From Apostichopus japonicus (taxonomy: Eukaryota), in contig NC_092565.1 of assembly GCF_037975245.1 (NCBI RefSeq), positions 23,274,063 through 23,338,062 on the forward strand: a DNA stretch of 64,000 bases. Reading direction: 5' to 3'. Made by a program: the position numbers and the translations under genes. The notes beneath the pieces are model-generated. The model was not told where the DNA came from. It saw only the letters and a list, made by a program, of their open reading frames with translations, and ran no database searches. This document shows positions 8,005 to 61,040 of the stretch, piece after piece. How positions within the stretch are numbered: the stretch's first letter is position 1; each line of letters starts with the position of its first letter.

Positions 8005-11000
8005 TCAGAGTGACACAGACATCATCAGCAAATCTTTCATTGATTTTCAGACGTTACCGTATGGGTCGGTTCTTATGACTGGGAAGGAGCCTGGTCAATG
8101 TTATTGTCTGGGGGTACATGGGTTATCGAGGGTTAAAACGACGTGATTTGGATCCAGAAAGCGAAGCCAACCAATCGGTTGACGCAGCAATTTCAGAAAT
8201 CTTGTTCTTTTGTACAGTGCATGTCAGAGAGATGATTGGGATGGATGCATCTCCTTATATCTTCATTTTGCTTTTATTTTATCAAATTCTTGCAGTGTGT
8301 GTGCGTGTTGGTAGGGTAGGGGTGCGGTTATTCCCGGTTCTATGCCTCTTGAATTTGAGGGTTATCGGATGATGCTGCCTCAAATTTTGGTCAGTAATTG
8401 GGGAGAGGGGGGGGAGGGATAAAACTAGAGCTAGCCATATAGCACGGACTATATTCACTTTGCAATGTACAACCCGTTCCTCTCTCTCCACCTCTGTGGA
8501 GTTGGCGTTGAGCGAAAGGCAATGTTGGTTATATCGTCCATCTTCTCCAGTGGAATCCTTGATGAAGGTATCTTTAAGAAGACACGATCTGGCCGATGTA
8601 TCATGGTTTTGTTCATGAAACGTTTCTTTCTTTTACAATTTACAAATTTGTAGTTCAAGTTCTTGTTGTGTGCTTTCTTATAACAGGCCCTTTATCCAAC
8701 CACTTGAAGCCTAGACCTAACTAATTGTGTGTATAGAGAGAAATTCCCACTGTTGTACACCAAACTAAGAGATTTCGCCCGAATGATTCGGTGGCTCTAT
8801 GCTCTTCACGTTTCTTGGCACAACTTAAAGAGGACACAATTGGTGTATTCTCATTGTTGTTTGTGTCAACCATAGCAGATCCATGAAGGGGGGGGGGGTG
8901 GGTCGGGTCTTATAGGAAGAGACGAGCCATTTCTCCATTAGCATAATGAACCGAGGGCAGGGGTGGGTTACACCTTCAGAGACAGATGAAGTAAAAAAAT
9001 CCAGGAAGAGAAATACTCTTAAAGGAATAATGAGAGGCCTACCTACCATCAGTAAATGAGAAGACCTATAACAAACATGAACGCAGCAAACAATTTCGCA
9101 CCCAAATACAGCCTTCTTTTCAAATTTCAACTTACCATATATATCAGTGAATCACCATGGTGAACAAACACTATATTTTGTCTATGACATCACATCAGGA
9201 ACTTTAAAACAGCCATCAGCAATTTGGATTTAAATTTCCGTTAATTTTACCAAACCTATAGAGTAATACTTGAAAATAACATTACATTTGATCAACCTAC
9301 AATACCCATCCCTTTTACAGCCTCATCAGAAAGAAAAAAAACAAGTCAAAACCTTACTCAGCGAATGATTAAGGATTCCACTCGATTCTAAGTTTCATCG
9401 GCCAGACACTTCTTCCTGTAAGTATCAATCACATGTAAACAACAGAGGATGATGACAAAGAAATGTCTGCATGAACCAAATATATATATATCTTTGTCAG
9501 TGTCATCGCTAGAAAGAGCATTGTGAGCATCGTTCCAGAACTCTCTATCTTATAATGAAATTGACCTGCAAATACGGTAACACTAATTCGAGTCCGAGGT
9601 TTGTATAGTATAGGAGTACAACAGCATGAGATCGAGAACCAGCGATTAATTATTATAGCTGAAATGTCCTACATGTAAGGTTTATTGATGAAAGATTTCC
9701 AACAAGTTTAGAATAGAGGGCGGTAACATCTTATTGATAAAAGGCATCAGGGGGGCACAACCACCGTTTTGAACTAGGGGGAGGGGTTAAGATGTTAAGC
9801 CATTTAAGGGGAGGGAGTTAGGGGAGGAGATGTCCACTCCCTATTGAACATTTTTGGTTAGATGGAGGGTACTTAGATGCAAAATGGTGCTACTGTGTGC
9901 ATCTTATGAAACAATGTTGAAAAATTCCAGGCCGTTTGGGTTGTATCACACATAACTGTTATGTATTTAGGTATGGATGCTAGGACTATTTCTTAATATT
10001 GTATGCCAGTGGGGAAGGGGAGGGGGGGGGAGGGCTGACCATCCAATTGATTTTACAGAGGTATATATGACTGTGCCCGTGAAGAGCATCGTAATAGGTT
10101 ATGAAGACTTGTTTTTCAAAGAAATATTATCCAATTATTTGTATTATGGTGAGTTTTTCCATCATAATCTTGGATTATGTACAGCTGTATATGCTGTAAT
10201 TTTACCTTAAGAGGGCCCAAAAAAAAAGTCTTGAAGTCACAGAAATGCTGGTGTTATTCAGCTTGTATTTATGGATACAAAGAGAATCATTAATATTTAC
10301 AATTAGTAACATTCATTAAATCCCCACTCCTACAAGACCCCCCTCCCCCTCCTCCACCTCTCCTTTTGACCTTTCCAAGAACAATAAGGCTTTTGGCAGC
10401 AGTGTTTGTTTCGTAAATATTACCAACTCTATGGTGAACTAATGAAAAGTCAAAACACAATGTGACTGATCAAACTTACAACATTTTCCATAACTTTTTC
10501 TACAAAGTGAAAGTTGATGATTACTTGTTGATTTTGTTTGTCAACATTTTGGTAGTCAAGACTCATTTTTCATGTCTGTATTATGATTATCAGTTATAAC
10601 ATGCAAAGAGCAACTTTGACAAATTCAAACTTTGGACTTGTACTTTATTATTTTGAACAGAGTGTTGACTAGTTAAGCTTAAGAGTTACATTGATGTCAG
10701 ATTCTTGAATTACATAACATCTTAAAACTGATCAAATTTCAACAAGATCACGATCAACAGGAACTTGAACAGAAACTTGAACAAAACCATTGATTAAATT
10801 AAGACAGCCCTTGTAGACATTTTGTACCCGAATGCATCAGTACTGACCAAGTCTATGAGAGTCTAAAAAGTGAATTGAAATGGCACTATTTTATGTTTTT
10901 GCTTATCACATACAAACAAACATACAAACAAACAAAATATACAAACAAACATACAAACTGACAAGTCATCAACTACGAGGGAACATAGTGCTTTGTTATG

Positions 11001-19976: not shown

Positions 19977-20030
19977 ATGCATAACCTGGTAGATGTCGGT
20001 CCGCTACAGTTTGTTCACATCTTGGATATG
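19977..20030 (+). CDS. MVP: MVP exon 1 (ATG)
   Basis: [18 protein letters not shown]. Donor gtaaga. Compare human IPPYHYIHVLD. Confidence 0.8.
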
Positions 20031-23000: not shown

Positions 23001-26000
23001 AACTGGAGGGTCCACTCACCTACAAGCCATTATCAGATGCAGTAAGTCTGTTGCTTTGGGGAATATCTTTCTTGAAGCTTTGTTAGGTAACCCAACTTCA
23101 TATTTTATCAAAAGTCATGCAAATATTTCTCAATGGTGGAATTACTCGTTATTAATCTTTTCTTAAAGTTCTTCTTTTTTTTCAATCTATTTTCATGGTG
23201 TTTAGTATAGTTGCTGCAAAGGAAAGGGGCATATTCAGTTTATAGGTGGTACAATTGAAATATAGATTAGTGGTTAATAGATTAGTGGAGATTAGTGGAG
23301 AAATAGATTAGTGGTTTAATCGGGATTTCAGTTGGAGGAGATTGATCTCTTTTCTATAATATTTTAAAAAATAACAACAAAAGTCTTATTGTTCTGTCTA
23401 TTTTTCAGGAGATTACAGGAGTTGTAGATGCTCAGGTGATTGGTATAAACCAAGCTATAAGAATGAGGGCCAAACAAGATCTCACTACCAAGTCAGGAGT
23501 GTAAGTCAATGAGAACAATAAGAAAGAAATGATGAATGTCATTTAATATTAATTACTTTTACTCTGACTAATCATCTCTTTGTCTTGCCCTTCTTACAGA
23601 AAGAAATCAGCCGGAGAAGAATGGCTTGAAAAGAAAGTTGGATCTTACTTGCCAGGGGTCTATGAAGAGGTAAGAATTATGTGGACTAGAGGACCAACAA
23701 TGAAGAATTTTAAATGGTTTATAAAGCAACCTGATTGTGTCTTTAGCTAAATTGCCCAAGAAATTATGGTTACTTTTTAAAGCAATTATCAAACACTTCA
23801 TGGAGACCTCTGTAGCAGGTACATGTATTTGTAAAGGCTACTTTCCAGCTACAAAGTCAGTACACAAAGTCAGTAATAAGTTTAGGCAAGAATAAATATT
23901 GGATATTGAAAGTGCAATATTTACCTGCATGAGAAAGGAATGAGTGGTTCGTCTGAAGTTGTAGGAAGGTTGTAAAATGACATCTGATTTACGGGGAGCT
24001 TGAGCCCAACTGGAGAGTCAAATATTCCTTTTACAGTAACTTCTCTAACTCTGTAACCATATAGAGGTTAATATTTGATTCCATTTTCATTGTTAAGCTT
24101 TGGTCATCACCATTGGATTCAGCCGTTGACAACTTTAATTAAGTTCTTGCTAGGATGGAAACGTCAGGCTCTCTAAAGTTGATAGATTTACCTTCACAGG
24201 CTTTTTTGCTGTTGATAACCAGTTTATTAACAGTTTTTGCTCTCATTACCTTCATTTGTTGTTTATAACAATTAATGTCCTATATATATAAACTCTTGTG
24301 ACAGGTAGTAGATCTAGTTCCTGCATACACCCTCAAGCCTGAAGAAGGATTGCACATCAAGGCCACTCACAACTGCGTCGATGCTCTCAAGAAGAAGAGA
24401 AGTGCAGGAGAAATGTGGTTGGTGACTGGAGAACAGATCAACAGTTACATCCCAGAAATTGGAGAAGTGAGTAATGTTTTGTTTTGAAGGCATAACTTAA
24501 AGGCATTGAAGACTCGCCCCAAACAGCGTGCCGTGCTCTGAAAAAGTTAACTTTCCATTGCTTGCAAGTGAAGTGTTCTGCTTGTCGCTACAAAATGCAG
24601 ACAGTAATGAAACGTGATACCTTGTTATCTTAAGCTGGACCTGAGATCCATAGCTGAGTCCATTGCTGTATTGTTTGTACACTGTGCTGTGGGTATTGAC
24701 CGCAGCTGTATGTACTGAATGTACACTAGTGTCTAATTACCGACGGTAGCAAGTTGTGTGCGTATATTCTGAGATTGATGGTGGTGTCTAACACTTCTGT
24801 TACACCTCAGTCGAAACTAGGTCATATTACCGGCATTAGACGTTTCTTTTTGCGCGAGTCTTCATACCCTTTAAGCTGAGCGATCCAACTGTCATTTATG
24901 TGACTTTTTCCATTGCTGAGATCATGTGAAATACTGCACCTGTTTTCATTCCAAAGAATATCATCACACAGTTCTATTTGAATATTCATGAACGTAGTAC
25001 ACTAAAAACAATTTAGAACTGCTCTCTTCCCGATGTTGAAGGGAGCCAAGTATTATAATTTGTCCCCAAGGTCGACCTGGCATATGACAACCCCCCGCCT
25101 CCCACACCAGATTGTGTGTCCAGCTATCTTTGGAGGTGAGGCTGATTCACTTTAGAAGTAATTTGACATAACATTTTATGGTTATATCTTTAGAAATGGC
25201 ATTTAGGTCATTGGGATATAGGAGACATACTTACAACAAATTACTAAGAAACCATTCAAAATTTGTTTATTTTACTCTCATTTCTAGGAGGTCATGAAAG
25301 CTGTTCAAAAGACTGTCCTTCGCAAAGGTCAGTTCTGTGTCGTGTCCAACCCTGTAGACAGAGATGGCGTTTGCCAACTCGGAAAGGAGAAATTATGGAA
25401 AGGGGTTGTCTCTTTCTTCCTACATCCAGGTAAAGTTATTTATTCCAGAGCTATCCAAAATGACTGACGTGTTTATCATACAGTATTTCATTCATTTCAA
25501 CTTTTCTATCCTAGGGTATGAAATCTTATCCTTAACATGACCTTTGAAGGATTTTCTTTTTCACTCACAATAGCCCTACAAAACATAAAAAAAACTGATT
25601 TTTAATACCTTTTCTTTATCAATTCTATTTTTCTAGATATTCTTTTATGAAAATAATACTTATCAGAAAATCAAATCAATAAACTTTAGAATTGGATTTT
25701 TTTTTTGATACTTATATAATCCCAAAATTTCAGGAGAGACAATCAAGCATGGAATTCAAGAACAATTTATCCTCGGCCCTGATCAGTCCATCGTTCTTCG
25801 GGCCAACTGTGAATTCACCGATAAGTCTGCCGGAGGTAAGCATACAAATGTTTATGATAAATGTAAGTACTAATTGTATAGGCTGCAAACAAGTGTTTCT
25901 TTTAGTGTTAGGATATGACAAAACCACAAGTACTTGTAAACCTAGTGTATTAGGCCATCAGCTGAAGCTCAAAATGTGGCTGTAAAATCAGTTTCGTTCC

Positions 26001-38000: not shown

Positions 38001-41000
38001 TATCCCAAAATTTGAATGATGATTTCAATGTGAATAAAAGACAGAAGAGAAGAAAGTGGGTTGTTTTGCTTAGTAATTCTAAGGTGATTTTTGTTTCTCT
38101 TTGTCTGTGAGGTAGGATTTCTCACCCCCCCCCCACCCAGATCCTTCTACATCAAAGAGAAAAGCATATTGTGGACATTTCCCCCCCCCCCCCCTCCACT
38201 ATTCTTAGAAGCTGCAAATCCACTGCTACTATGTAATCAAATCTCTTGATTTCTTTTTCTTTTGTCAGTTCTGTAGAGAGGACAGCTGGCCACGAGGCAG
38301 CTCGCAAGGAACAAGAGGCCAAAGGACATCTGGAGAGACAACGACTGGTGAATCAGAAGGAAGCAGAGAAAGCCAGGAGTATTTTATACGAACTCAGAGC
38401 CCAGACATCGGCTGTGGAATCAACAGGGCAGGCCAAAGCAGAGGCACAGGTGAGGCACCAGCTAGTACACTCTTTCAGGAAATAGTAAACATGTTAAAGT
38501 GATTACTTCAAAGTGATTACTTTCTGGTAGCAGGAGCAAATTGTACCAAAAATTTGGTCACAAAAAGTCAGCATGACTGATAGGTAGAAATTACTTGGGG
38601 AAAACTGTTATATTGGTAGATAAAACAACACATACTGCCCACCCCACCCCTCCCCCCCTTGCCCCACTTCATTCTCTCCTTGAGTTTGTAGATGCTTATC
38701 TGGTGAAGCGAGTGTCAACCAACTTTTACTCGGTTAGACTAAGATGTTGAGATGAAGTTTTCACCCTCCAGTGTGGTATATTATTACATTGATATATCCA
38801 TACAACATCCTGTGGCTATATTTGCATGGGTCCTTAGAACCCCAGACTCCTCCACCCAAAGAAAGAAAACACTTGTGTTTCAACTGTCTCCTCAGGCTCT
38901 GCATATCCTTCTCAGACTACCACTAAATAAGTATAAGAAAAATGGTGAGCTGCCCTCTCCCCCTGTCGCTACCAAAGAAGAAGGAGATTTAGACACCCAT
39001 AAACTTCAAGGTGGCTATGCATTGATATGTATATATATCACTAATGAGTGAGTTATTGTTTATGTTCAGGCTCAAGCTGAGAAGCTCTTGATAGAGGGCC
39101 AGAGCAGTATTGATGAAGCAACCCTGAAACAGGAGGCTGAGAACATCATTCACTCTACCGACCTGGAGATACAGACAATGCTGAGAGAGGCAGAACTGTC
39201 TTACCAGCAGCAACAGGACACGCTGGAGTTAGATACGAAGAAGAGGATGGCAGAAATAGAGGTGAAATGGACGTTAATGGGTCCTGAATGGGTGGTGAGG
39301 TGGGAGGAAAGGGTGTATAGGGACCAAGGTTTGTGTACTAAAGAAGGCTTGGAGGAGGGAGGAAAGGGTGAAAGCAGGAACAAGGTTTCTGTACTAAAGA
39401 ATGCTTGGAAGTGGGAGGAAAGGGTGTATAGGGACCAAGGTTTGTGTACTAAAGAAGGCTTGGAGGAGGGAGGAAAGGGTGTAAGCAGGACCAAGGTTTG
39501 TATACTAAAGAAGGCTTGGAAGTGGGAGGGATGGGTGTAAGGAGGACCAATGCCTGTGTACTAAAGAGTGCCTGGAGGAGGGAGGAAAGGGTGTTAGTAG
39601 GACTAAGGCTTGTGTACTAAAGATTGCTTGGAGGAGGGAGGAAAGGGTGTAAGCAGGACCAAGGCTTGTGTACTAAAGATTGTCTGGAGGAGGGTGGGAA
39701 GGGTGTAAGTAGGACTAAGGCTTGTGTACTAAAGATTGCTTGGAGGAGGGAGGGAAGGGTGTAAGTAGGGCCAAGGCTTGTGTACTAAAGACTTAAGACT
39801 AAAGTACTGGCTGGTACATCTGTATCAAGTTGGGCATTGTTTGCTTTGTAAGTGATTTCTTGAAATAAAGTCTCTTTGTCAAGGTAGACATGTTTTTTTC
39901 ATCTTGCAGGTTGAGAAATTTGCATCCATGGTGGACAGTATTGGAATTGAGACCATCACAAAGATAGCCATTGCTGGACCTGCATCCAAGGTAAAGATTA
40001 CCTTAGAATGACCAGAGGTTTATTCACCATACATTCCTGGTTTTAAGTAATTGTATACCTGGAAGTGTTTTATGTTTGCTTTAGTTTCTCTTCTGATAGC
40101 TTGGTTAAAATGTACCTGATATCATATTTAGAAACTCAGTTTTCCCACACAGTTTCCAAAGTACATTTTGTGTTAAGTGTACTAAAATTGCAGTCTACTC
40201 GTTAAGGGAAATCGATAATATGTGAATAATTACAATCTAGGACACTGAAAATGGGAGGGCTGTCGATGCCCTATGATGGTCAAGTCTGCCTATAGAAAAA
40301 CAGTCTTCCTCAAATTCAATTGAGCATTAATAACTTGTTACTTGATAGCACAAACTACCCAAAGTACTGCCATTAGGATTCATCCTTGAGCGCACCTAAT
40401 TAATTGACCAGTCACCTGTATGATTGTAAACACAAGTGCTCTTTTGGTCAGCACTACTTTCCTGTATGAAGACAAATTTGGCTTGACCACTGAAATAGTA
40501 CACTTTGTGTTTAAACATGAATTTGTGTAAAGGAGCGTTCAGTATGGCTAGCATTATGAACTCGGGTCGATATTAAATCTCCCTTTTTTGGCCCAAAACA
40601 GGGGACTCGGTTGGTATTTGCTATAGGCAGGGTAGACCATAATGCCTTCTCTCAGCCCCTTAATCCTTTTCCATCTCCTGTTCTGTTTTTTCCATTCTTC
40701 TTGGTTTAATTGAGAGAAGCAGTCAAGTATGGAAAAAGTGTTTACTTGATGCTTACAGGCCAGACTATCTAAAAGAGGATAAAGTCTTAATTCAAAGTAA
40801 AAAGAAAACGAGAGAATTACCTTTCTATTGTTATTACCTGTTAGTTTCTTTGGCCAGTCAGTGAACTACCATTGGTATATTCTGTGAGCTGCACTCACTG
40901 ACTTTTGTGAGGGAAGCAAAAATGGTAACCATTTTGTACAAATGGACAATCTTATATTGAAACAACCTTACTGATTATGGTTTGTTGTTTAAGTCAATAA

Positions 41001-44100: not shown

Positions 44101-44888
44101 ATACTTAATCCAATGACATTTTCATCAAGCCTAAAAGGTTATACCATTAGTTAAAATGAAGATGAGTAAAAATTTCATAGGTAACTTGATGAAAATAAAA
44201 AAATCAGTCCAATCATAAATATTTACAAACTAGCACTCTGAGATGATCATATTTATATGATGAAAATCAATGTCTGCAAACTAGGTTAGACAAAAATAAA
44301 AAATAAATCTTCTTTTACAAGTCTTGGGGTTTTGACTTTATTTAGCAGTCATGACTTTGATTGTCAATTTGTGGCAATATTATCAAACCTACCAGTTATT
44401 ACATGGAAAAAGATTGTGAAGATTTTGGTATAAAATAAAGCTTATTTAACATTTTTAACAATTTAAGCATTTCTTTGACCAGAGAAGTTACTACTGTACA
44501 AGTATTAAAGGATGATGTTATTAGTCAAGGTTGTCTTTCTATAGCAATTTTAATTGTTGAGCTATGACCCTTTAAAGAGATTAGGTTCATCAATAAAAGT
44601 GACTGGACAATATAGTCTAGTACATAGACTGTTAGATTAGTTCCTCAGATGCAATACAAAACCCAATGGAAAACATAAGAATTTGATGGTCTCAAATAAC
44701 ATGTTTATATGATGTGTTACACATTTTTCAAGGACAAATTATGTTGATAGTAATCCAAGGGTGTTCTTTTGTTGATATGAAGTTAAAAGATGTTTTGGTT
44801 GAGTTATTAGAATTGATAAAACAATGGATTCATATGGACATTGAAGGCCTGCACCGTAGAGCTCACATCATCATCAATCTAGCCTTAA

Positions 44889-45233
44889 AGGGTGTTTAGA
44901 CTCGCGCACAAAGAAACGTCTCATGCCGGTAATCTGACCTAGTTTCGCACGAGGTGTAACAGAAGTGTTAGACACCACCATCGATCCCAGAAAATACACA
45001 CACAGCTTGCTACCGTCGGTAATTAGACACTTGTGTACAGTCAACACATACAGCTACGGTCAATACCCACAACAGTGTACATAGCAGCGATGGACATCTC
45101 AGGTCTAGATAAAAGATAACAAGGTATCACGTTTCATTACTGTCTGCATTTTGTAGCGACAAGAAGAAAACTTCACTTGCAAGCAACGGAAAGTTAACTT
45201 TTTCAGAGGGCGGCACACCGTTTGGGGCGAGTC
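44889..45233 (-). mobile_element. TTAA-flanked MITE copy 2 (345 bp), intergenic, inverted relative to copy 1
   Basis: Termini AGGGTGTTTAGACTCGCGC / GGCGAGTCTTCAATGCCT. TTAA at 44885-44888 and 45234-45237. Internal sequence aligns as reverse complement to 24501-24870 over its full length. Confidence 0.65.
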
Positions 45234-48231
45234 TTCAATGCCTTTAAAGGATCATTCCCAGGGATTTAGTATATTTCAAAGATGAATATCTTGATAACTG
45301 TTATAGTTATATAGAAACATCCATAGTGCTCAAATTTTTCTGTTTCCTTATACTAAAAAAGCATTTCTGCCTATTAGCCATCCTTTACCTGTATGAAGAT
45401 GGCAACTCTGATAGAATGACAATTCTCAAATGGCTCTGTCTGCATTATTTAAATTAAGTGAAATTCAAATAAGATCAAGGAAATGAAAGGCATAAATTAA
45501 TGGGAATATTTGTATCCATAACTATTGATGATTTACCAAACTCTCAAAAAAGTAAAAAGTCAACTTTGCTGACATTGTTTAGTGATAATTAAGTATTGTT
45601 TACATTTCTATTGTTTTAAGAAAACCAGATTATTAAATTAATGTTTACACTTTAAATTGTGTTTTTATCATTGTGATTTAATTTTGTTTCTTTTGCTCTA
45701 GGGTAAAAATTTTGTCATTTTTTTCTTTACAAATTTTTGTCATTGTTATTATATTTATTTACAAGGATATAATCTCTTCCATGACAGATAACAGGTGTGG
45801 GGATTGTGGGGGGGGGATTGAAACAAAGCACTTTTTTGTTTCTGTTTCTGAACATATGCACTGTGCTTTACATAATTCTTAGCAATAAGTGTAAAAATCC
45901 TTGAGTTTAATGAGAGGACTGAGCATGTACAAACGTACATCTCTTGATATATCCACTGCCTGTCAGTCTACGGGCAATGATGAAATTGTTAATGTTTGTG
46001 CTATTGAAACCAAGGAAAAACTAGCAAAATTTGAACAGTTTTAGCTTCAGATATGACCAGTATTAAAATGGTTGTATCACCCATGAACGAATCGTTTTCA
46101 CATTTGATCTGGCCGTCCAATTGTAAAAAATACCTTTAAATGTAGTTAAACTCTTTGACCCTGTTTATAACGATGTGTCGTCCACGAATTTGCCTTTACA
46201 TTATCACCACTCCTCGGGCTGTTTCAAATTAAAAGTTCCTCTTGTTTGTGTGTTTGTCTGTCTGTCTGTAATGTTAGTTACAATATCAAATACAATATTA
46301 GATTATGTTGAATATCTTGGAGCCTATCACAGCTTTTTAGGACCAGAGCAAAATTAACTCAATATGTATACATTTTAAATATGGGATCTGCCCAAGCTTA
46401 CCTTCTTGTTAACCAGGTTTTCACAATTTGACCCCTGGTGACCCCAAATGATATTTGACCTCCACAAAACAAGAAGCTTCTTGTTCTCAATGTGGTACTT
46501 CTACACACCACATATGAAATTGTTCGAACCTTCCCTTCTTCAGATATTGTGTTTACAAGCCAGGCGTCACAAAGCCAAACACACATATGCCATCATGAAT
46601 GCAAAGGTTACGAATTACCATCGAAACCAAAAATGTCTTCTTAAATAACACCTTTCAACGAGCCATTAAATTGGGCTTTCAGAAAACAGTTTGACTGTAT
46701 GGCTTATAAAAATATCAAAATGTAATTTAAAGCAATTTTGTATTTAAGCAGCAATGCAATATCTTTGATACTGAAATGAAATACACCTGGTACACTTAAA
46801 GGTACACTCTCTCACACAATACATCTATTCCAAACCAGTGCAACTTGTTCAATATTCATCTGCACCAGTACACTAATAACGCATGACAAAGCTTCGCTTA
46901 AATGTCAATCATACAGCTTTGTGAGTCTTTCAGTTAACATCATTTACAATACATGGATGCTGGTTTTCTAAAATACCCCTACCCCCCCCCCCCCCAAAGG
47001 TATAAACTAATGATGTTGATTATCTCATGTAAGTATCGGTTACCCATGTCAGCACTGACCAATGAAATACTCAGATATTTGACGTATCAATTATGCTACA
47101 GACTGTGTTAATGTGATGGTGACACCTGTAACCCGGTAAAATGCTTGACAGATGCCTTACTCACTAAAGTAAACACTTTCCTGGGTCTAGACAACGTTAG
47201 CTATACCTGGTATATATCATATGATTACAAAATAATCTATCTTGTCAAATGAACAAACAACCAGCTGAACAAGTTAGCCAATTCAAAGTGATCTGGAGTC
47301 TCGGGATATTGAGCATATGTTATCACACTACAGCTAAAAAACAAACTAACGTTACGTTTTGTGCTGATGTGTCTGCATTTGTGATCACACTACAGCTAAA
47401 AAACAAACTAACGTTATGTTTTCTGCTGTGTTTGTCATGGACGATATTATATTGCAAATTCACACCAGCTGCTTATAAACACTAAAATTGAAAGAATTCT
47501 TGGTTGGTAAGAACAGCCAATGAGAGTAGAGTACCATCAACGTCCTACAATATTATATAGAAAATATTCATAATATTAGTAATTATAAAAAGTGTTCACA
47601 AAACCTCACACACTGTTTCAGACAGCTCTGTAAGAAGATATTAGATTTGGATTTTTAATGACACAAGCAAAGAGAAAAATTTAAGAATACCATTCTATAA
47701 GTTGAGCATAACCATCATAAATTATTATCATATTTTGTCCATTTCTTGGTCCACAATGACAGGTCCAATGAGAATTAATAAATGAATGAAAGAGTAACAT
47801 TTGATGTTAACTTGAAAACTATTATATCTTACTTTAATAGACATACTAATCAAGAAAAACAATCTGTACTGCATGGAGCTAATCATATACTTATTAACGA
47901 GGTAACAACCACCTTTTCATTTACATATATTCAAAACCTTCAGACTTTTCTTTTAGGAATTAATATTGTGGTACCCTTTCTTCATATTCCCACCCATCTG
48001 AAAAAATTTGAAATTATAAAGATAGAAAAGGTATTATACATATGACAAAAGTACTCTAATATTTTCTCATTATCTGCGATCCCAAAACCTCATACGTGAA
48101 ATTAGCATCTTGAATAATGAAACAGAAGCCAACAAATGGACAATATCGCCTTCACCAATGTAACATGATACCTCTTATTCACACTACCATGTTTAGTTTA
48201 AAAAATAATGTTAATAAGATGGATCAATGTA

Positions 48232-48595
48232 GAGTAGAGGTTATCTCAAAGCAGAGGTTATCTCAAAGTAGAGGTTATCTCAAAGAAGAGGTTATCTCAG
48301 AGCAGAGGTTATCTCAAAGTAGAGGTTATCTCAGAGTAGAGGTTATCTCAAAGTAGAGGTTATCTCAGAGTAGAGGTTATCTCAAAGTAGAGGTTATCTC
48401 AAAGTAGATGTTATCTCAAAGTAGAGGTTTTCTCAGAGTAGAGGTTATCTCAAAGTAGAGGTTATCTCAAAGTAGGGGTTATCTCAAAGTAGAGGTTATC
48501 TCAAAGTAGAGGTTATCTCAAAGTAGGTGTTACCTCAAAGAAGAGGTTATCTCAAAGTAGAGGTTATCTCAAAGTAGAGGTTATCTCAAAGAAGC
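48232..48595. repeat. 17-bp tandem repeat (agaggttatctcaaagt)n, about 21 copies
   Basis: read directly, with minor variants (gcagaggtt, aagaggtt, gtagatgtt). Confidence 0.85.
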
Positions 48596-50282: not shown

Positions 50283-53200
50283 CTAAACCGCCACAAAAAA
50301 AGAGAGAGATGAAAATAAGACAACAACAGAAGAAAACAAATAAGCCAATGGTCTACAATAGCATTAAGTTTATGATAGAAACAACACTGTAATGATTTTG
50401 AATACTGTCGATTTCAAGTGATCAACAAGGCCTTTTAGACTGACTTTATATGTAGACATATTTTAACATGAAAAGCGATAGGGTTCACTAAGTGGGACAT
50501 ACCTTCCAAGAAGTAACATTACACACAGCTGTGCTTTTTGAGTTATCAAGTGTTGCTTTATCACTATACATAGGTGAAACTACACAGTAGGTATGCAAGT
50601 CACCCAAGCTTTACTTTTGTAGATGACATATTACAAGTTTTAAACATCAATCTCTTTTGACTTTGAAACAGGATAGATCTTTTTTGCACCCTCCAAAGTT
50701 TACAAATTATACAAAGTGTTTCATACCTGCTGATATCAAGTGACCTATGACCTTCACCAGAAAGGGAGACCTTTATAATCAGCATAACTATCATTGATTT
50801 GTGGTTGGCTTACTACAAGCCACGCTGTGCAGTTTCCTACGATATATTTCAAGGAGGGTTGGAGAGTATGTACAAGGAGGAATGGACAGGGAAATGAAGT
50901 GGCCATGATACAATTACTCAGCTACCGATTATGTGGACTTCCCGCAACATTATCTCATTGAAGAAGCCATCGATATCTATAATAACCAAAAAATTATAAA
51001 AAGATGATGAAGAATTATTAAAGATAATATCCAGACTAACCTCATGCTCTAGGAAGAGAGCTTTTAATGCGCCTCCCGACCAATAATCCATTGCGTAGGC
51101 CAAGAGCTTCATTGCTATTGGGTTAACTCTCAGGAAATTGCCCACAAATACTACACGAGTTAATTTCTGCAAGAAGAAAGAGAAAAGATTGGGAGTGAAA
51201 CTCTGTACTACAGCAATCAAGATGTGATGTTCTTCTTGTACTTGAGGACACTGACCTGAATAAAAGTGAATTTTTATTGTTTTTATGGCTATACGCAAGA
51301 ATTGTCCATAGAAGATATCAGTGTTCTGTTATAGATTAGACATTTTGCTGCAATGTCACCTTAGACACTACGTCACTTTTGTACACACAATTCTTGAGGC
51401 ATTTGTTACCTCCAGGGCAGTAAACCAGTAGCATTGTTGCGATATGAGATTTTTCCATATCGATATACCGTTAATTCTGTTCTGCTATATATATTGTCAA
51501 GAGTCATTCCAATTTCAACTCAGCAAACTCCAGTCACAAAGAGCAGTACTCTTTGCATGATTGATATAATTTAGTCCAATTATCAGTACCAGTAAGACAC
51601 ATTTTTCACCCCAGTTGATTTTTTCTGACAATCCATTTTCAACTAATCAACTTATAAAAAAATGGAAGCAACAACATTTCAGTTCAAGAACATATACCAT
51701 ATTTCTTTGATTTTAGTTTTTTCAAATGTCTTTTCTTTTGCATTCGTGATCAATTTTTATAAGATGTTGCACTAAAATTTAGGATCAGGTGATCTGGTGG
51801 CGGTTTCAATATAAAAAAGTAGAATTTTTATACTTTTTATTTTAAATACGTACACTCAATAAAATGGTTAAAACAAAAATATGGTTATGATTTTACAAGG
51901 GTTGCACCACTTCCATCAATCTGACAATGTCTTCTGAGCATTCATCTACTTTAAATCGTTCTTGTTTTGAACCATCAATCGTTAACTCTCTGAGTTGAAG
52001 CACTCACCAAATTCATGGCAGTCATCATAGCCAGAGAGCCGATATTGTTTGTGATCGTAACAAGAGTTGCTCGGGCTAGATCAGCTTTTGAAGCTTCCTC
52101 TCTCTTCTCTTTTCGATGCATAAATCCAAAGCTGTGGGAGAGTAGAAATATCACTCCACATGTTAACTCAATTAACCAAAAAGTACATTAACAGTAGAAG
52201 TTAACAGTACATTAACAGTTAACAGTAGAAGTTAACAGTAGAAGTTAACAGTAGAAGTTAACAGTAGAAGTTAACAGTACATTAACAGTAGAAGTTAACA
52301 GTAGAAGTTAACAGTTAACAGTACATTAACAGTAGAAGTTAACAGTAGAAGTTAACAGTTAACAGTACATTAACAGTAGAAGTTAACAGTAGATTAACAG
52401 TTAACAGTACATTAACAGTAGGAGTTAACAGTAGGTTAACAGTTAACAGTACATTAACAGTAGAAGTTAACAGTAGAAGTTAACAGTTAACAGTACATTA
52501 ACAGTAGAAGTTAACAGTAGATTAACAGTTAAGAGTACATTAACAGTAGAAGTTAACAGTAGATTAACAGTTAGGTACATTAACAGTAGAAGTTAACAGT
52601 AGATTAACAGTTAACAGTACATTAACAGTAGAAGTTAACAGCAGAAGTTAACAGTTAACAGTAGAAGTTAACAGTAGATTAACAGTTAAGAGTACATTAA
52701 CAGTAGAAGTTAACAGTACTGTAGATTAACAGTTAAGAGTACATTAACAGTAGAAGTTAACAGTAGATTAACAGTTAAGAGTACATTAACAGTAGAAGTT
52801 AACAGTAGATTAACAGTTAAGAGTACATTAACAGTAGAAGCTAACAGTAGATTAACAGTTAACAGTACATTAACAGTAGAAGTTAACAGTAGATTAACAG
52901 TTAACAGTACATTAACAGTAGAAGTTAACAGTAGATTAACAGTTAAGAGTACATTAACAGTAGAATTTAACAGTAGATTAACAGTTAACAGTACATTAAC
53001 AGTAGAAGTTAACAGTACATTAACAGTTAACAGTACATTAACAGTAGAAGTTAACAGTAGATTAACAGTTAACAGTAGAAGTTAACAGTAGATTAACAGT
53101 TAACAGTTCATTAACAGTAGAAGTTAACAGTACATTAACAGTAGAAGTTAACAGTAGATTAACAGTTAAGAGTACATTAACAGTAGAAGTTAACAGAAGA

Positions 53201-56200
53201 TTAACAGTTAACAGTACATTAACAGTAGAAGTTAACAGTAGATTAACAGTTAACAGTACATTAACAGTAGAAGTTAACAGTAGATTAACAGTTAACAGTA
53301 CATTAACAGTAGAAGTTAACAGTAGATTAACAGTTAACAGTACATTAACAGTAGAAGTTAACAGTAGATTAACAGTTAACAGTATATTAACAGTAGAAGT
53401 TAACAGTAGATTAACAGTTAACAGTATATTATAACCGAAATTACGTTTCGTTAGAAAAGAGTAGAAAAAACAAATCAGCTCATTAAACACTGCAAACGAT
53501 ATTGAAAGACCTGACTTTCAAACTAAAAGGAATTATTTCATACTATATAGTAACCTACCTGTTGGCTACTGTGCCTCCTGGCAATTCAAACCTGTTGTAG
53601 GCTACTCCATATATATCTCACATTAACTAGTCTATCTGCCAACCTTACAGTTATTTAGGTTGTGATGAGTACCAGAGAGAAACATCAAACAAGGACAGAA
53701 TGAAACATGCACATCACAGAGAAGGCTTAATGTACAGTAACCTACCTGCTGGCTACTGTGCCTCCTGGCAATTCAAACCTGTTGTAGGCTACTCCATATA
53801 TATCTCACATTAACTAGTCTATCTGCCAACCTTACAGTTATTTAGGTTGTGATGAGCACCACAGAGAAACATCAAACAAGGACAGAATGAAACATGCACA
53901 TCACAGAGAAGTTTTAATGTACAGTAACCTACCTGCTGGCTACTGTGCCTCCTGGCAATCCAAACCTGTTGTAGGCTCCTCCATATATATCTCACATTAA
54001 CTAGTCTATCTGCCAACCTTACAGTTATTTAGGTTGTGATGAGCACCACAGAGAAACATCAAACAAGGACAGAATGAAACATGCACATCACAGACAAGGC
54101 TTAATGTACAGTAACCTACCTGCTGGCTACTGTGCTTCCTGGCAATCCAAACCTGTTGTAGGCTCCTCCATATATATCTCGCACTAACTTGTCCACCTTT
54201 TGGTTGTCCCCCTGAGTAGCCATGTCAATGGCTTCTTCAAACGTTTCACAGCCGGTGAGAAGACAGCATAGACCTAGAAATGTACCTCCCCCCAGACTGT
54301 TGAGGAGAAGGAAACAAAAGGGATTAAACTTTTCAAATAAATATTCATATTTAAATGAATATATGACAGTGTGCATTTAGGGTCACCAATAAATGTACTA
54401 CGTACCACAAACCTTTCACAAAATATGTTAAAATGTTGCCAAGAAGGAGGTCAAGGGTTTGACCTGTACGGAAAATGCAAACTTTAATGCTGTCCTCAAG
54501 TCTTGGCATAAGGCTAACCTTCCAAAAAAATTATCAACAACTTATTTTTAAATTTTATCTAAATGCATATAAATTATATATCGTCAAAAGAAATAAGAAA
54601 CAGCTTAGTTAGTTCACAAGCTGGGCAAGCTTAATTTGCCAGACAATTCTGTACACTACAGTATCAACCAATAACAGGCAAAAACCTCACTGTATGCAGT
54701 CAAGAAACAAAAGTTGCAAGAATATGAAGAGTATGATATTCTGTTATTTACAATGTATGATAAAAATCTAACAAAAGTCTAACAAATGAAACATCACCCT
54801 TGCCCGAATAATGTTCCTGTCTCTTAATAATGGCTGTACTATTTTTAACTGTCCGAAGAGAAATTTGAATATCTCAGAGGCATTTCTCTTTTTCCTACCC
54901 TCTGTTTTGTCTTTTTTGACAAAGAGATAGCCTTACCTTGTTCCAGAAACTCTTTGAAAATCAGTTTGGGAATGTACTGCTAGGATGCTGACCCCTGAGC
55001 CTATGTTTACGACCAGATAAGGGTAAGGGTCACGAAAGTCATACGGCGTTTTGACACTGCTCTCTGGGTTACGCGGGTCAGAGTGGTTCCAGTAGTAACA
55101 CTCGTTGGGGATCAACCGGTCGATGAAATGAATTCCATGAATCAGACAGTTGAGTTCATCGTGTTTCTGTAGTTTCATGTTTACGATCTATAAATTCAAA
55201 GTCATAACACATAAACTATTGAGCAGATATTTACGAGTGACGGCTTTTGGTGGAAGCCCTCCTCATGAAACCAGGAGTGACCGGTCTGAGAGGACGTACA
55301 GTGCTGAGAAAAGGTTACCAGCTGACTCAGATATGGTAGAGGGAGGATGCGGATGTCTGGGGGAGACAGGTAAGCGAGTAGTGACGTATAAAATTCATTC
55401 ACTGGACAGGAATGACTTGGATATTGCATTGTACATGGTGACAGATGATGATATAAATGTATTAATATGTCACAGTGCTACACCAAAATGCCCAATTCCG
55501 TTCCAACCCTCAGATAGGATTTGTTTTGTACCAAAGAAGGACAGATAAGTGACTAGAAAATTTTGAACGTATTTGGAAAAGTGCCAAGAAAAAATAATTT
55601 TTAACCTACAGTAGCACAGGATACAGATCCAAAGTCTGTTGAAGTCTTGTATATATATGAAATCCTCATTTTTGGTTGACGTATTGTCGAAATGATGTAG
55701 GGCCTGTTCACACTAGAACTGAGTCGAGCACAGATCTCTGAGTTTAAACATGGAGTTGAATTCAAAATTCTGGTGTCAACGCAATTCAGATACTGTATTT
55801 TAAACTTAAATTTTTCTGGAAATAAAGTTTCAGAATGAATAGACAAATACATAACATCCAAAACTTACATTAAAGAAGTCTTTTTCAAATTTGAATGCGC
55901 CACCACCAGTGGCATGGATGACTTCTGCCAAACTGGACAACTTCTTCTCTTTCACCAGATGCAGGAATGTCTCCATCTCGTAAGTGGGGAATCTAATGAA
56001 ATGGAGTGACCCCGTGTGACCCAGTACGGTCACGTTGGGTATCTCCAGGTACACGTCCCGGACACCTGTGTCACCGTAGGCAGTGTTTGACTTGAGGTAG
56101 TGTTGAATCGTTTCTAGGGCATCTGGTTCCACATCGGGGTCATTGTCCCCTGGGAGGACGTCGTTTGGCTCGAAGTACACCAACTTGGCAAGAGTACCGC

Positions 56201-60114: not shown

Positions 60115-61040
60115 ATTGTTTAATTGTTACACTATGAGCTGTTTAATTGTTACACTATGAGCTGTTTAATTGTTACACTATGAGCTGTTTAATTGTTACA
60201 CTATGAGCTGTTTAATTGTTACACTATGAGCTGTTTAATTGTTACACTATGAGCTGTTTAATTGTTACACTATGAGCTGTTTAATTGTTACACTATGAGC
60301 TGTTTAATTGTTACACTATGAGCTGTTTAATTGTTACACTATGAGCTGTTTAATTGTTACACTATGAGCTGTTTAATTGTTACACTATGAGCTGTTTAAT
60401 TGTTACACTATGAGCTGTTTAATTGTTACACTATGAGCTGTTTAATTGTTACACTATGAGCTGTTTAATTGTTACACTATGAGCTGTTTAATTGTTACAC
60501 TATGAGCTGTTTAATTGTTACACTATGAGCTGTTTAATTGTTACACTATGAGCTGTTTAATTGTTACACTATGAGCTGTTTAATTGTTACACTATGAGCT
60601 GTTTAATTGTTACACTATGAGCTGTTTAATTGTTACACTATGAGCTGTTTAATTGTTACACTATGAGCTGTTTAATTGTTACACTATGAGCTGTTTAATT
60701 GTTACACTATGAGCTGTTTAATTGTTACACTATGAGCTGTTTAATTGTTACACTATGAGCTGTTTAATTGTTACACTATGAGCTGTTTAATTGTTACACT
60801 ATGAGCTGTTTAATTGTTACACTATGAGCTGTTTAATTGTTACACTATGAGCTGTTTAATTGTTACACTATGAGCTGTTTAATTGTTACACTATGAGCTG
60901 TTTAATTGTTACACTATGAGCTGTTTAATTGTTACACTATGAGCTGTTTAATTGTTACACTATGAGCTGTTTAATTGTTACACTATGAGCTGTTTAATTG
61001 TTACACTATGAGCTGTTTAATTGTTACACTATGAGCTGTT
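60115..61040. repeat. 23-bp satellite (ctgtttaattgttacactatgag)n, about 40 near-identical copies
   Basis: read directly; almost no inter-copy divergence. Confidence 0.95.

What the first reader, a model, noticed from the sequence alone, without database searches (positions are those of the whole stretch)
24497..24874. TTAA-flanked MITE inside MVP intron 8, with a second inverted copy 20 kb downstream
A ~350-370 bp element with 17-19 bp TIRs (AGGCATTGAAGACTCGC...GCGAGTCTTCATACCCT) occurs at 24501-24870 and, reverse-complemented, at 44889-45233. Both copies are bracketed by TTAA on each side. TTAA duplications are the hallmark of piggyBac-superfamily integration, and also of some PIF/Harbinger-like TWA sites. 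The two copies differ by scattered substitutions, so this is a real dispersed family rather than a segmental duplication. Both copies sit close to genes, in the MVP intron and in the MVP/PANK intergenic 3' region.
Basis: partly seen in the sequence, partly recalled or inferred. Interest (0 to 1): 0.55.

Follow-up and report, generated by a model that had tools for sequence, protein, structure and literature searches.

The report
TTAA-flanked MITE family in sea cucumber
Two copies of a short, non-coding "cut-and-paste" transposon (a MITE) sit in and near the major vault protein gene of the sea cucumber Apostichopus japonicus; it is an ordinary piece of repetitive DNA, and its end sequences fit the Kolobok transposon superfamily better than piggyBac.

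Summary
They carry imperfect 17-bp terminal inverted repeats (14/17), and homology stops exactly at a TTAA on both sides of both copies. The window is Apostichopus japonicus. A six-frame protein search found two more full-length copies on other scaffolds, so there are four independent loci with unrelated flanks, and all eight ends abut TTAA. This is a real dispersed MITE family, not a segmental duplication. Copy 1 lies in the intron after the 8th coding exon of MVP, 28 nt from the donor site. Copy 2 lies between the convergent 3' ends of MVP and PANK.

The piggyBac reading is not supported. piggyBac ends begin with a highly conserved C, and these begin AGG...CCT. TTAA plus 5'-RR...YY-3' termini is the published signature of Kolobok (compare Xenopus T2-MITEs, TTAA + AGGRR). 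It is not the solo repeat of the published KolobokP-1_ApJa.

No autonomous partner and no empty site could be found, so the Kolobok assignment rests on TSD and termini alone. The element is ordinary and of low interest.

The parts
24497..24500 (.). TTAA flanking copy 1, left (putative target-site duplication)
   Evidence: homology among all copies starts here; upstream flank is unique
24501..24870 (+). MITE copy 1, 370 bp, no coding capacity, in the intron after MVP coding exon 8
   Evidence: no Pfam or Rfam match
24501..24517 (+). Left TIR of copy 1, AGGCATTGAAGACTCGC
   Evidence: TTAA plus the first 18 nt of the element are identical in all five sequences
24854..24870 (-). Right TIR of copy 1 (reads AGGGTATGAAGACTCGC on the minus strand)
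24871..24874 (.). TTAA flanking copy 1, right
44885..44888 (.). TTAA flanking copy 2 (next to the right TIR of the inverted element)
44889..45243 (-). MITE copy 2, 355 bp, inverted, in the MVP/PANK convergent intergenic region; also present in the 2017 assembly allele (L011:18758-19112)
44889..44905 (+). Right TIR of copy 2 (AGGGTGTTTAGACTCGC, degraded: 2 mismatches to the family's right TIR)
45227..45243 (-). Left TIR of copy 2 (AGGCATTGAAGACTCGC on the minus strand)
45244..45247 (.). TTAA flanking copy 2 (next to the left TIR)
24305..24468 (+). Context: MVP coding exon 8 (…IPEIGE|gtgagt); the MITE's TTAA starts 28 nt after the donor site
25288..25434 (+). Context: next MVP coding exon (…tttctag|GAG GTC ATG…; aligns to rat MVP ~265-322); 3' boundary approximate

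Best explanation
[quoted passage not shown] They are non-autonomous class II DNA transposons of ~355-370 bp with no coding capacity. They were moved in trans by a DDE transposase that recognises the ~17-bp terminal inverted repeats (AGGCATTGAAGACTCGC / AGGGTGTGAAGACTCGC), and they integrate at TTAA, which is duplicated on both sides. The combination of a TTAA target and 5'-AG(G)...(C)CT-3' termini places the family most probably in the Kolobok superfamily, like the Xenopus T2-MITEs, rather than in piggyBac.

Shown: the element structure, the TIRs, TTAA at all eight ends of four independent insertions, the lack of coding or RNA-family signal, and the host species.

Inferred: that TTAA is a duplication made on insertion, that a Kolobok transposase was the mobilising enzyme, and that the copies are now inactive relics. 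The two copies in the window are passive passengers, one in an MVP intron and one in the intergenic DNA downstream of the convergent MVP and PANK genes. There is no evidence that they have a function.
For: Four independent loci with unrelated flanks and full-length homology bounded by TTAA on both sides: window 24497-24874, window 44885-45247, L012:9344-9711 and L013:18358-18711. The TIR pattern is found only at element ends, with 0 expected by chance. Pairwise p-distance is 6.4-10.5%, and 2.3-4.0% to a 4-copy consensus. No Pfam domain in any ORF, no Rfam family, and no Kolobok-like coding remnant nearby. The host was identified as A. japonicus from PANK and BUB3. Literature: Kolobok makes TTAA-specific TSDs and, unlike piggyBac, has 5'-RR...YY-3' termini (PMC9587614). 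T2-MITEs have a TTAA target and terminal AGGRR, and full-length Xenopus Kolobok TIRs begin AGG/AGA/AGC next to TTAA (PMC6004289). The first C of piggyBac TIRs is highly conserved and the terminal G is needed for excision (PMC5381638). Copy 2 is shared, with the same diagnostic indels, by a second assembly whose allele differs by 4%, so that insertion predates the split of the two haplotypes.
Against: No autonomous element with matching TIRs was found, and none could be searched for genome-wide. A Kolobok transposase profile gave 325 hits, none named A. japonicus among the 120 listed. The superfamily call therefore rests on a 4-bp target and 2-3 terminal bases. The T2 'AGGRR' motif is matched only in part (AGGCA on the left, AGGGT on the right). 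No empty site was recovered, so duplication of TTAA is inferred, not shown. Only four copies were seen, and two of them came from a search biased towards gene models. The only Kolobok family published for this species (KolobokP-1_ApJa) is unrelated in sequence and not TTAA-specific.
Confidence: 0.68

Rival explanations
1. A piggyBac-superfamily MITE, mobilised by a piggyBac-like transposase that cuts at TTAA.
For: TTAA at all eight ends. TIR length of 17 bp is within the 12-19 bp typical of piggyBac-like elements (PMC5381638). The second and third TIR bases of piggyBac-like elements are known to vary.
Against: In 157 piggyBac-like elements the first TIR base is a highly conserved C, and deleting the terminal G abolishes excision (PMC5381638). 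Here both termini start with A (AGG...CCT) in all four copies. Kojima and Bao use exactly this difference to separate Kolobok from piggyBac.
Confidence: 0.12
2. A Tc1/mariner-type (Stowaway-like, TA duplication) or PIF/Harbinger-type (Tourist-like, TWA duplication) MITE, in which the apparent TTAA is a shorter duplication plus terminal or flanking bases.
For: TA, TTA and TAA are all nested in TTAA, and without an empty site the exact length of the duplication cannot be read directly.
Against: A TA duplication needs T before and A after it at all eight ends by chance. That is roughly 0.32^8, about 1e-4, at this base composition (inference). A 3-bp duplication needs one extra invariant flanking base at each of four copies and shifts the two TIRs one base out of register. 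The TIRs are in register only for TTAA or TA. The termini do not resemble the usual starts of PIF/Harbinger or Tc1/mariner TIRs; this last point is from my own knowledge and was not tested.
Confidence: 0.07
3. Another or unclassified TTAA-associated group, or a solo terminal repeat or fragment of a larger composite element such as KolobokP.
For: KolobokP occurs in A. japonicus, and its solo LTDRs look like MITEs with short TIRs. Sola2 and Sola3 target preferences could not be checked.
Against: The KolobokP-1_ApJa LTDR is 469 bp, begins GGTAGCGTACGCC and contains neither TIR of this element. KolobokP LTDRs cluster at ~450 or ~660 bp and show 3-5 bp TSDs without target specificity. Here the lengths are 355-370 bp and the target is strictly TTAA. 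Sola1 uses AWWT (PMC3845634). No homology extends beyond the TTAA at any copy.
Confidence: 0.1
4. Not a transposon: a segmental duplication or chance inverted repeat.
For: Only two copies are visible in the window itself.
Against: There are four loci on three scaffolds with sharp, identical boundaries and unrelated flanks. The TIR pattern has 0 matches expected by chance.
Confidence: 0.01

Closest known systems
Xenopus T2-MITE family (Xmix etc.), non-autonomous members of the Kolobok superfamily (Hikosaka et al.; PMC6004289)
   Same: Short non-coding elements. TTAA target on both sides. Termini read TTAA|AGG... at both ends. Short TIRs. Dispersed, often in or near genes.
   Different: There is no sequence similarity beyond the terminal AGG. 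The T2 motif AGGRR is matched only in part (AGGCA / AGGGT). The host is an echinoderm. No autonomous partner has been identified, whereas Xenopus has full-length XKol elements.
piggyBac-type MITEs and piggyBac-like elements (PMC5381638)
   Same: TTAA flanks and TIRs of 12-19 bp.
   Different: piggyBac TIRs start with a conserved C (CCC...GGG or C[C/A/T][C/A/T]). This element starts with A at both ends.
KolobokP-1_ApJa and its solo LTDRs, the only Kolobok family published for A. japonicus (Kojima and Bao 2022, PMC9587614)
   Same: Same host. Kolobok-type RR...YY termini. Solo LTDRs are MITE-like units with short TIRs.
   Different: Unrelated sequence. The LTDR is 469 bp against 355-370 bp here, its TIR is 7 bp against 17 bp, and KolobokP shows no TTAA specificity (TSDs of 3-5 bp).

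Membership tests
MITE (generic non-autonomous class II element) | Short (<800 bp), terminal inverted repeats, no coding capacity, several dispersed copies with sharp common boundaries | tested here: met
   355-370 bp; 17-bp TIRs (14/17); no Pfam or Rfam hit; four independent loci
Kolobok superfamily | [quoted passage not shown] | tested here: met
   TTAA at 8 of 8 ends at four loci; feature as stated in PMC9587614
Kolobok superfamily | Termini 5'-RR ... YY-3' | tested here: met
   5'-AG(G)...(C)CT-3' in all copies; feature from PMC9587614 and PMC6004289
Kolobok superfamily | Autonomous relative with matching TIRs encoding a Kolobok DDE (THAP/H2CH) transposase | tested here: inconclusive
   tblastn of 12 Kolobok cores against 200 kb of loci found nothing. 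The profile search listed no A. japonicus protein among its top 120 of 325 hits. The genome itself is not searchable with these tools.
Kolobok T2-MITE family | Terminal AGGRR motif next to TTAA | tested here: not met
   Left end AGGCA, right end AGGGT: AGG is shared, but positions 4-5 are not both purines. It works like a T2-MITE but should not be filed as a member of that family.
KolobokP (solo LTDR) | Sequence identity to a KolobokP LTDR; length ~450 or ~660 bp; direct-repeat architecture around an internal region | tested here: not met
   No TIR or core match in the KolobokP consensus set, including KolobokP-1_ApJa; length 355-370 bp; no second direct copy or shared flank
piggyBac superfamily | TTAA target site duplication | tested here: met
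piggyBac superfamily | TIR begins with a conserved C (CCC...GGG or C[C/A/T][C/A/T]); the terminal G is needed for excision | tested here: not met
   Both ends begin with A (AGG) in every copy; feature from PMC5381638
PIF/Harbinger (Tourist-like) | 3-bp TWA target site duplication | tested here: inconclusive
   TTA and TAA are nested in TTAA. This reading needs an extra invariant flanking base at 4 of 4 copies and puts the TIRs out of register. An empty site is needed for a strict test.
Tc1/mariner (Stowaway-like) | TA target site duplication | tested here: inconclusive
   TA is nested in TTAA. This reading requires T and A flanks at 8 of 8 ends, about 1e-4 by chance (inference).
Sola1 | AWWT 4-bp target | tested here: not met
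   TTAA does not fit AWWT (PMC3845634)
Any TTAA-duplicating transposon | Empty (pre-insertion) site carries a single TTAA | not testable with these tools
   Copy 2 is present in both assemblies. The alternative-assembly locus for copy 1 could not be fetched. No paralogous empty site exists in the loci held.

The most novel reading that the evidence does not exclude
The family would be the footprint of a classical, TTAA-specific Kolobok lineage (Kol0/T2-like, not KolobokP) that was active in holothurians. The literature I could search records only KolobokP for echinoderms and lists no echinoderm among hosts of classical Kolobok. It would imply an as yet undescribed autonomous Kolobok transposon, possibly still intact, in sea cucumbers. 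Repbase or Dfam may already hold such families; I could not check.
Probability: 0.25. Interest if true: 0.25.

Novelty: new member of a known kind. Interest (0 to 1): 0.13.

Why it matters
It matters little beyond repeat annotation. Correct masking of this family would improve A. japonicus gene models: two models in the 2017 annotation run into a copy and stop inside it, and a fibrillin-like gene appears to be split at one. If the Kolobok assignment holds, it adds a TTAA-specific Kolobok MITE family to echinoderms and gives a TIR sequence with which to look for the autonomous element. There is no indication that either copy affects MVP, BUB3 or PANK.

Tried and rejected
1. MVP exon query in the protein database, to reach orthologous or allelic loci: only two distant hits.
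2. Exact look-ups of 23 ORFs around the copies and in BUB3/MVP exons: only the PANK exon-1 ORF and my spliced BUB3 were on record.
3. BUB3 (P0133) led only to RNA-seq contigs. So copy 1 could not be examined in a second assembly.
4. The PANK locus of the 2017 assembly (L011) contains copy 2, so there is no empty site there.
5. Reconstructed empty sites matched nothing else in the loci held.
6. The Holothuria leucospilota locus (L001) has no copy and is too diverged (80% in exons) for intron comparison.
7. Two metagenome scans with TIR patterns: 0 hits, then 10 hits that match only the 21-mer and are chance.
8. KolobokP-1_ApJa LTDR as the source: rejected, unrelated sequence.
9. Search for a Kolobok transposase: none in 200 kb of loci, and no A. 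japonicus protein visible in the profile search.
10. Structured RNA or SINE origin: no Rfam hit better than E 0.95. The single-strand fold is only the TIR stem.
11. The Sola2/Sola3 target preference could not be checked; the paper is not held.

Full report
OBSERVATION. Reading the two regions directly and running blastn of 24497-24874 against the whole window confirms one other full-length match, 45247-44885 on the opposite strand. It is 87.4% identical over 380 columns, with three small indels. Nothing else in the 64 kb rises above noise.

The global alignment shows homology starting exactly at a TTAA and ending exactly at a TTAA in both copies. Beyond these the flanks are unrelated. The termini are AGGCATTGAAGACTCGC (24501-24517) and, on the other strand, AGGGTATGAAGACTCGC (24870-24854). 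That is 14 of 17 matching, with an 11-nt perfect core. The TIR pattern including TTAA occurs four times in the window, at the four ends, against 0.00 expected in dinucleotide-preserving shuffles.

One coordinate needs correcting. Copy 2 is 44889-45243, with TTAA at 44885-44888 and 45244-45247, not 44889-45233.

HOST AND CONTEXT. The exon-1 ORF of the pantothenate kinase gene in the window is on record in a cluster that holds Apostichopus japonicus and Holothuria leucospilota PANK. A. japonicus RNA-seq contigs match the window's PANK exons at 98-100%, whereas H. leucospilota matches at about 80%. My spliced reconstruction of the BUB3 gene (minus strand, ~11.8-17.7 kb) is identical to XP_071828609.1 of A. 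japonicus. So the window is Japanese sea cucumber.

Alignment to rat and human MVP structures, together with splice-site inspection, places eight coding exons (starting at 19977, 20887, ~21749, 22493, ~22898, 23409, ~23598 and 24305) before the intron 24469-25287. 'Intron 8' is therefore consistent, apart from any untranslated 5' exon. The element's TTAA begins 28 nt after the donor site, and the element makes up 45% of the 819-bp intron. Copy 2 lies between the convergent 3' ends of MVP (~39.3 kb) and PANK (~49.5 kb).

IS IT A DISPERSED FAMILY? No tool here searches a eukaryotic genome by DNA, so I translated both copies in six frames, concatenated the open stretches and searched the protein collection. 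Two A. japonicus gene models from the 2017 annotation matched: a 'fibrillin-1' model and a 'mucin-4-like' model. Fetching their loci gave two further full-length copies, L012:9344-9711 and L013:18358-18711.

The PANK locus of the 2017 assembly (L011) carries the allele of copy 2, with the same diagnostic indels and 4% divergence.

The five-sequence alignment shows that all four independent insertions read ...TTAA|AGGCATTGAAGACTCGCC......GAGTCTTCACACCCT|TTAA... The TTAA and the first 18 nt of the element are invariant. One kilobase of flank on either side is unrelated between loci. Pairwise p-distances among independent copies are 6.4-10.5%, and distances to a four-copy consensus are 2.3-4.0%.

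It also excludes a segmental duplication.

WHAT KIND OF ELEMENT? The element has no coding capacity: no Pfam hit for its longest ORFs. It has no RNA-family signal (best Rfam E 0.95). As a single strand it folds only through the TIR stem. It is a MITE.

Two superfamilies are TTAA-specific in the literature I could read, piggyBac and Kolobok.
- In piggyBac-like elements, the one strongly conserved TIR feature across 157 elements is the first C (motif C[C/A/T][C/A/T][T/G/A]...), and removing the terminal G abolishes excision (PMC5381638).
[quoted passage not shown] - The Xenopus T2-MITEs are defined by a TTAA target and terminal AGGRR, and full-length Xenopus Kolobok elements have TIRs starting AGG, AGA or AGC next to TTAA (PMC6004289).

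The sea cucumber element starts AGGCA and AGGGT. This meets the Kolobok criterion, fails the piggyBac criterion and only partly matches the T2 motif. I therefore describe it as working like a T2-type Kolobok MITE. I file it under Kolobok with moderate confidence, and I do not file it in the T2 family.

SHORTER DUPLICATIONS. TA or TWA duplications cannot be formally excluded without an empty site, but both are disfavoured.
- A TA duplication needs T and A flanks at eight of eight ends, about 1e-4 by chance.
- A 3-bp duplication needs an extra invariant base at each copy and puts the TIRs out of register.

Sola1 (AWWT) does not fit.

KOLOBOKP. KolobokP was reported in A. japonicus, and its solo long terminal direct repeats look like MITEs, so I checked it. 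KolobokP-1_ApJa has a 469-bp LTDR that begins GGTAGCGTACGCC, has a 7-bp TIR and contains neither TIR of this element. KolobokP also lacks TTAA specificity. I rejected it as the source.

WHAT COULD NOT BE SHOWN.
- No autonomous partner was found. Kolobok transposase cores taken from the supplement of PMC9587614 find nothing in the ~200 kb of holothurian DNA held. A profile search returned 325 relatives, with no A. japonicus protein among the 120 listed. This is not evidence of absence.
- No empty site was found. Copy 2 is present in both assemblies. Copy 1 could not be reached in a second assembly. No paralogous empty site exists in the loci held.
- Metagenome scans with TIR patterns gave only chance 21-mers.

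So the duplication of TTAA and the identity of the transposase are inferences.

MECHANISM. A transposase encoded elsewhere binds the TIRs, excises the element and integrates it at a TTAA, and repair of the staggered cut duplicates the TTAA. This is the standard cut-and-paste cycle and is inferred, not shown. The divergence between copies, the degraded right TIR of copy 2 (TTTAGACTCGC instead of TGAAGACTCGC) and the sharing of copy 2 by two haplotypes that differ by 4% all suggest old, now immobile copies.

Nothing indicates a function for either copy. Read-through from MVP exon 8 meets a stop at 24485-24487, before the element.

VERDICT. This is an ordinary repeat family and a new member of a known kind, so interest is low.

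Noticed in passing
L012:9344-9711 and L013:18358-18711 (2017 A. japonicus assembly, MRZV01002193.1 and MRZV01000419.1): Two annotated proteins (P0011 'putative fibrillin-1', P0012 'putative mucin-4-like') read from flanking DNA into the 5' end of a MITE copy in the same frame (…KGIEDSPQT…) and terminate inside it. In L012 the next gene model starts at 9615, also inside the MITE. A fibrillin-like gene was therefore probably split at an intronic MITE. This is either an annotation artefact or real exonisation; it was not resolved.
   Followed up: partly
window 53549-54193: A 187-bp unit is repeated 3.4 times at 96% identity and overlaps the 3' part of the PANK exon at 54120-54301. PANK transcripts hit both the real exon and a second site at 53933-54006, so part of an exon plus adjacent intron has been tandemly duplicated.
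   Followed up: no
window 60117-61040: A perfectly homogeneous minisatellite: a 23-bp unit repeated 40 times at 100% identity. The 2017 assembly also holds the array at this locus (L011, about 5.2-6.2 kb).
   Followed up: no
window 39297-39791; 48233-48591; 52232-53431: Three further tandem arrays: 56 bp x 8.9 just after the last MVP coding exon; 17 bp x 21 in the MVP/PANK intergenic region; and 42 bp x 28 inside a PANK intron.
   Followed up: no
window 44636-44853 versus L011:19147-19156: A 218-bp stretch lying 31 bp from copy 2 is absent from the 2017 assembly allele, which instead has the 8-mer CTCTACGG duplicated at the junction. It is an indel polymorphism of unknown origin. I saw no TIR or TSD.
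   Followed up: partly
window ~17687 (BUB3 ATG, minus strand) to 19977 (MVP ATG, plus strand): BUB3 and MVP are arranged head to head, with about 2.3 kb between their start codons, which suggests a shared bidirectional promoter region. The BUB3 protein spliced from the window equals XP_071828609.1 exactly.
   Followed up: partly
window versus L011 (whole PANK region): The window and the 2017 assembly differ by 2-9% in alignable non-coding DNA, with many indels, and the two alleles of MITE copy 2 differ by 4%. This reflects very high haplotype divergence in this species, or assembly of divergent haplotypes.
   Followed up: no
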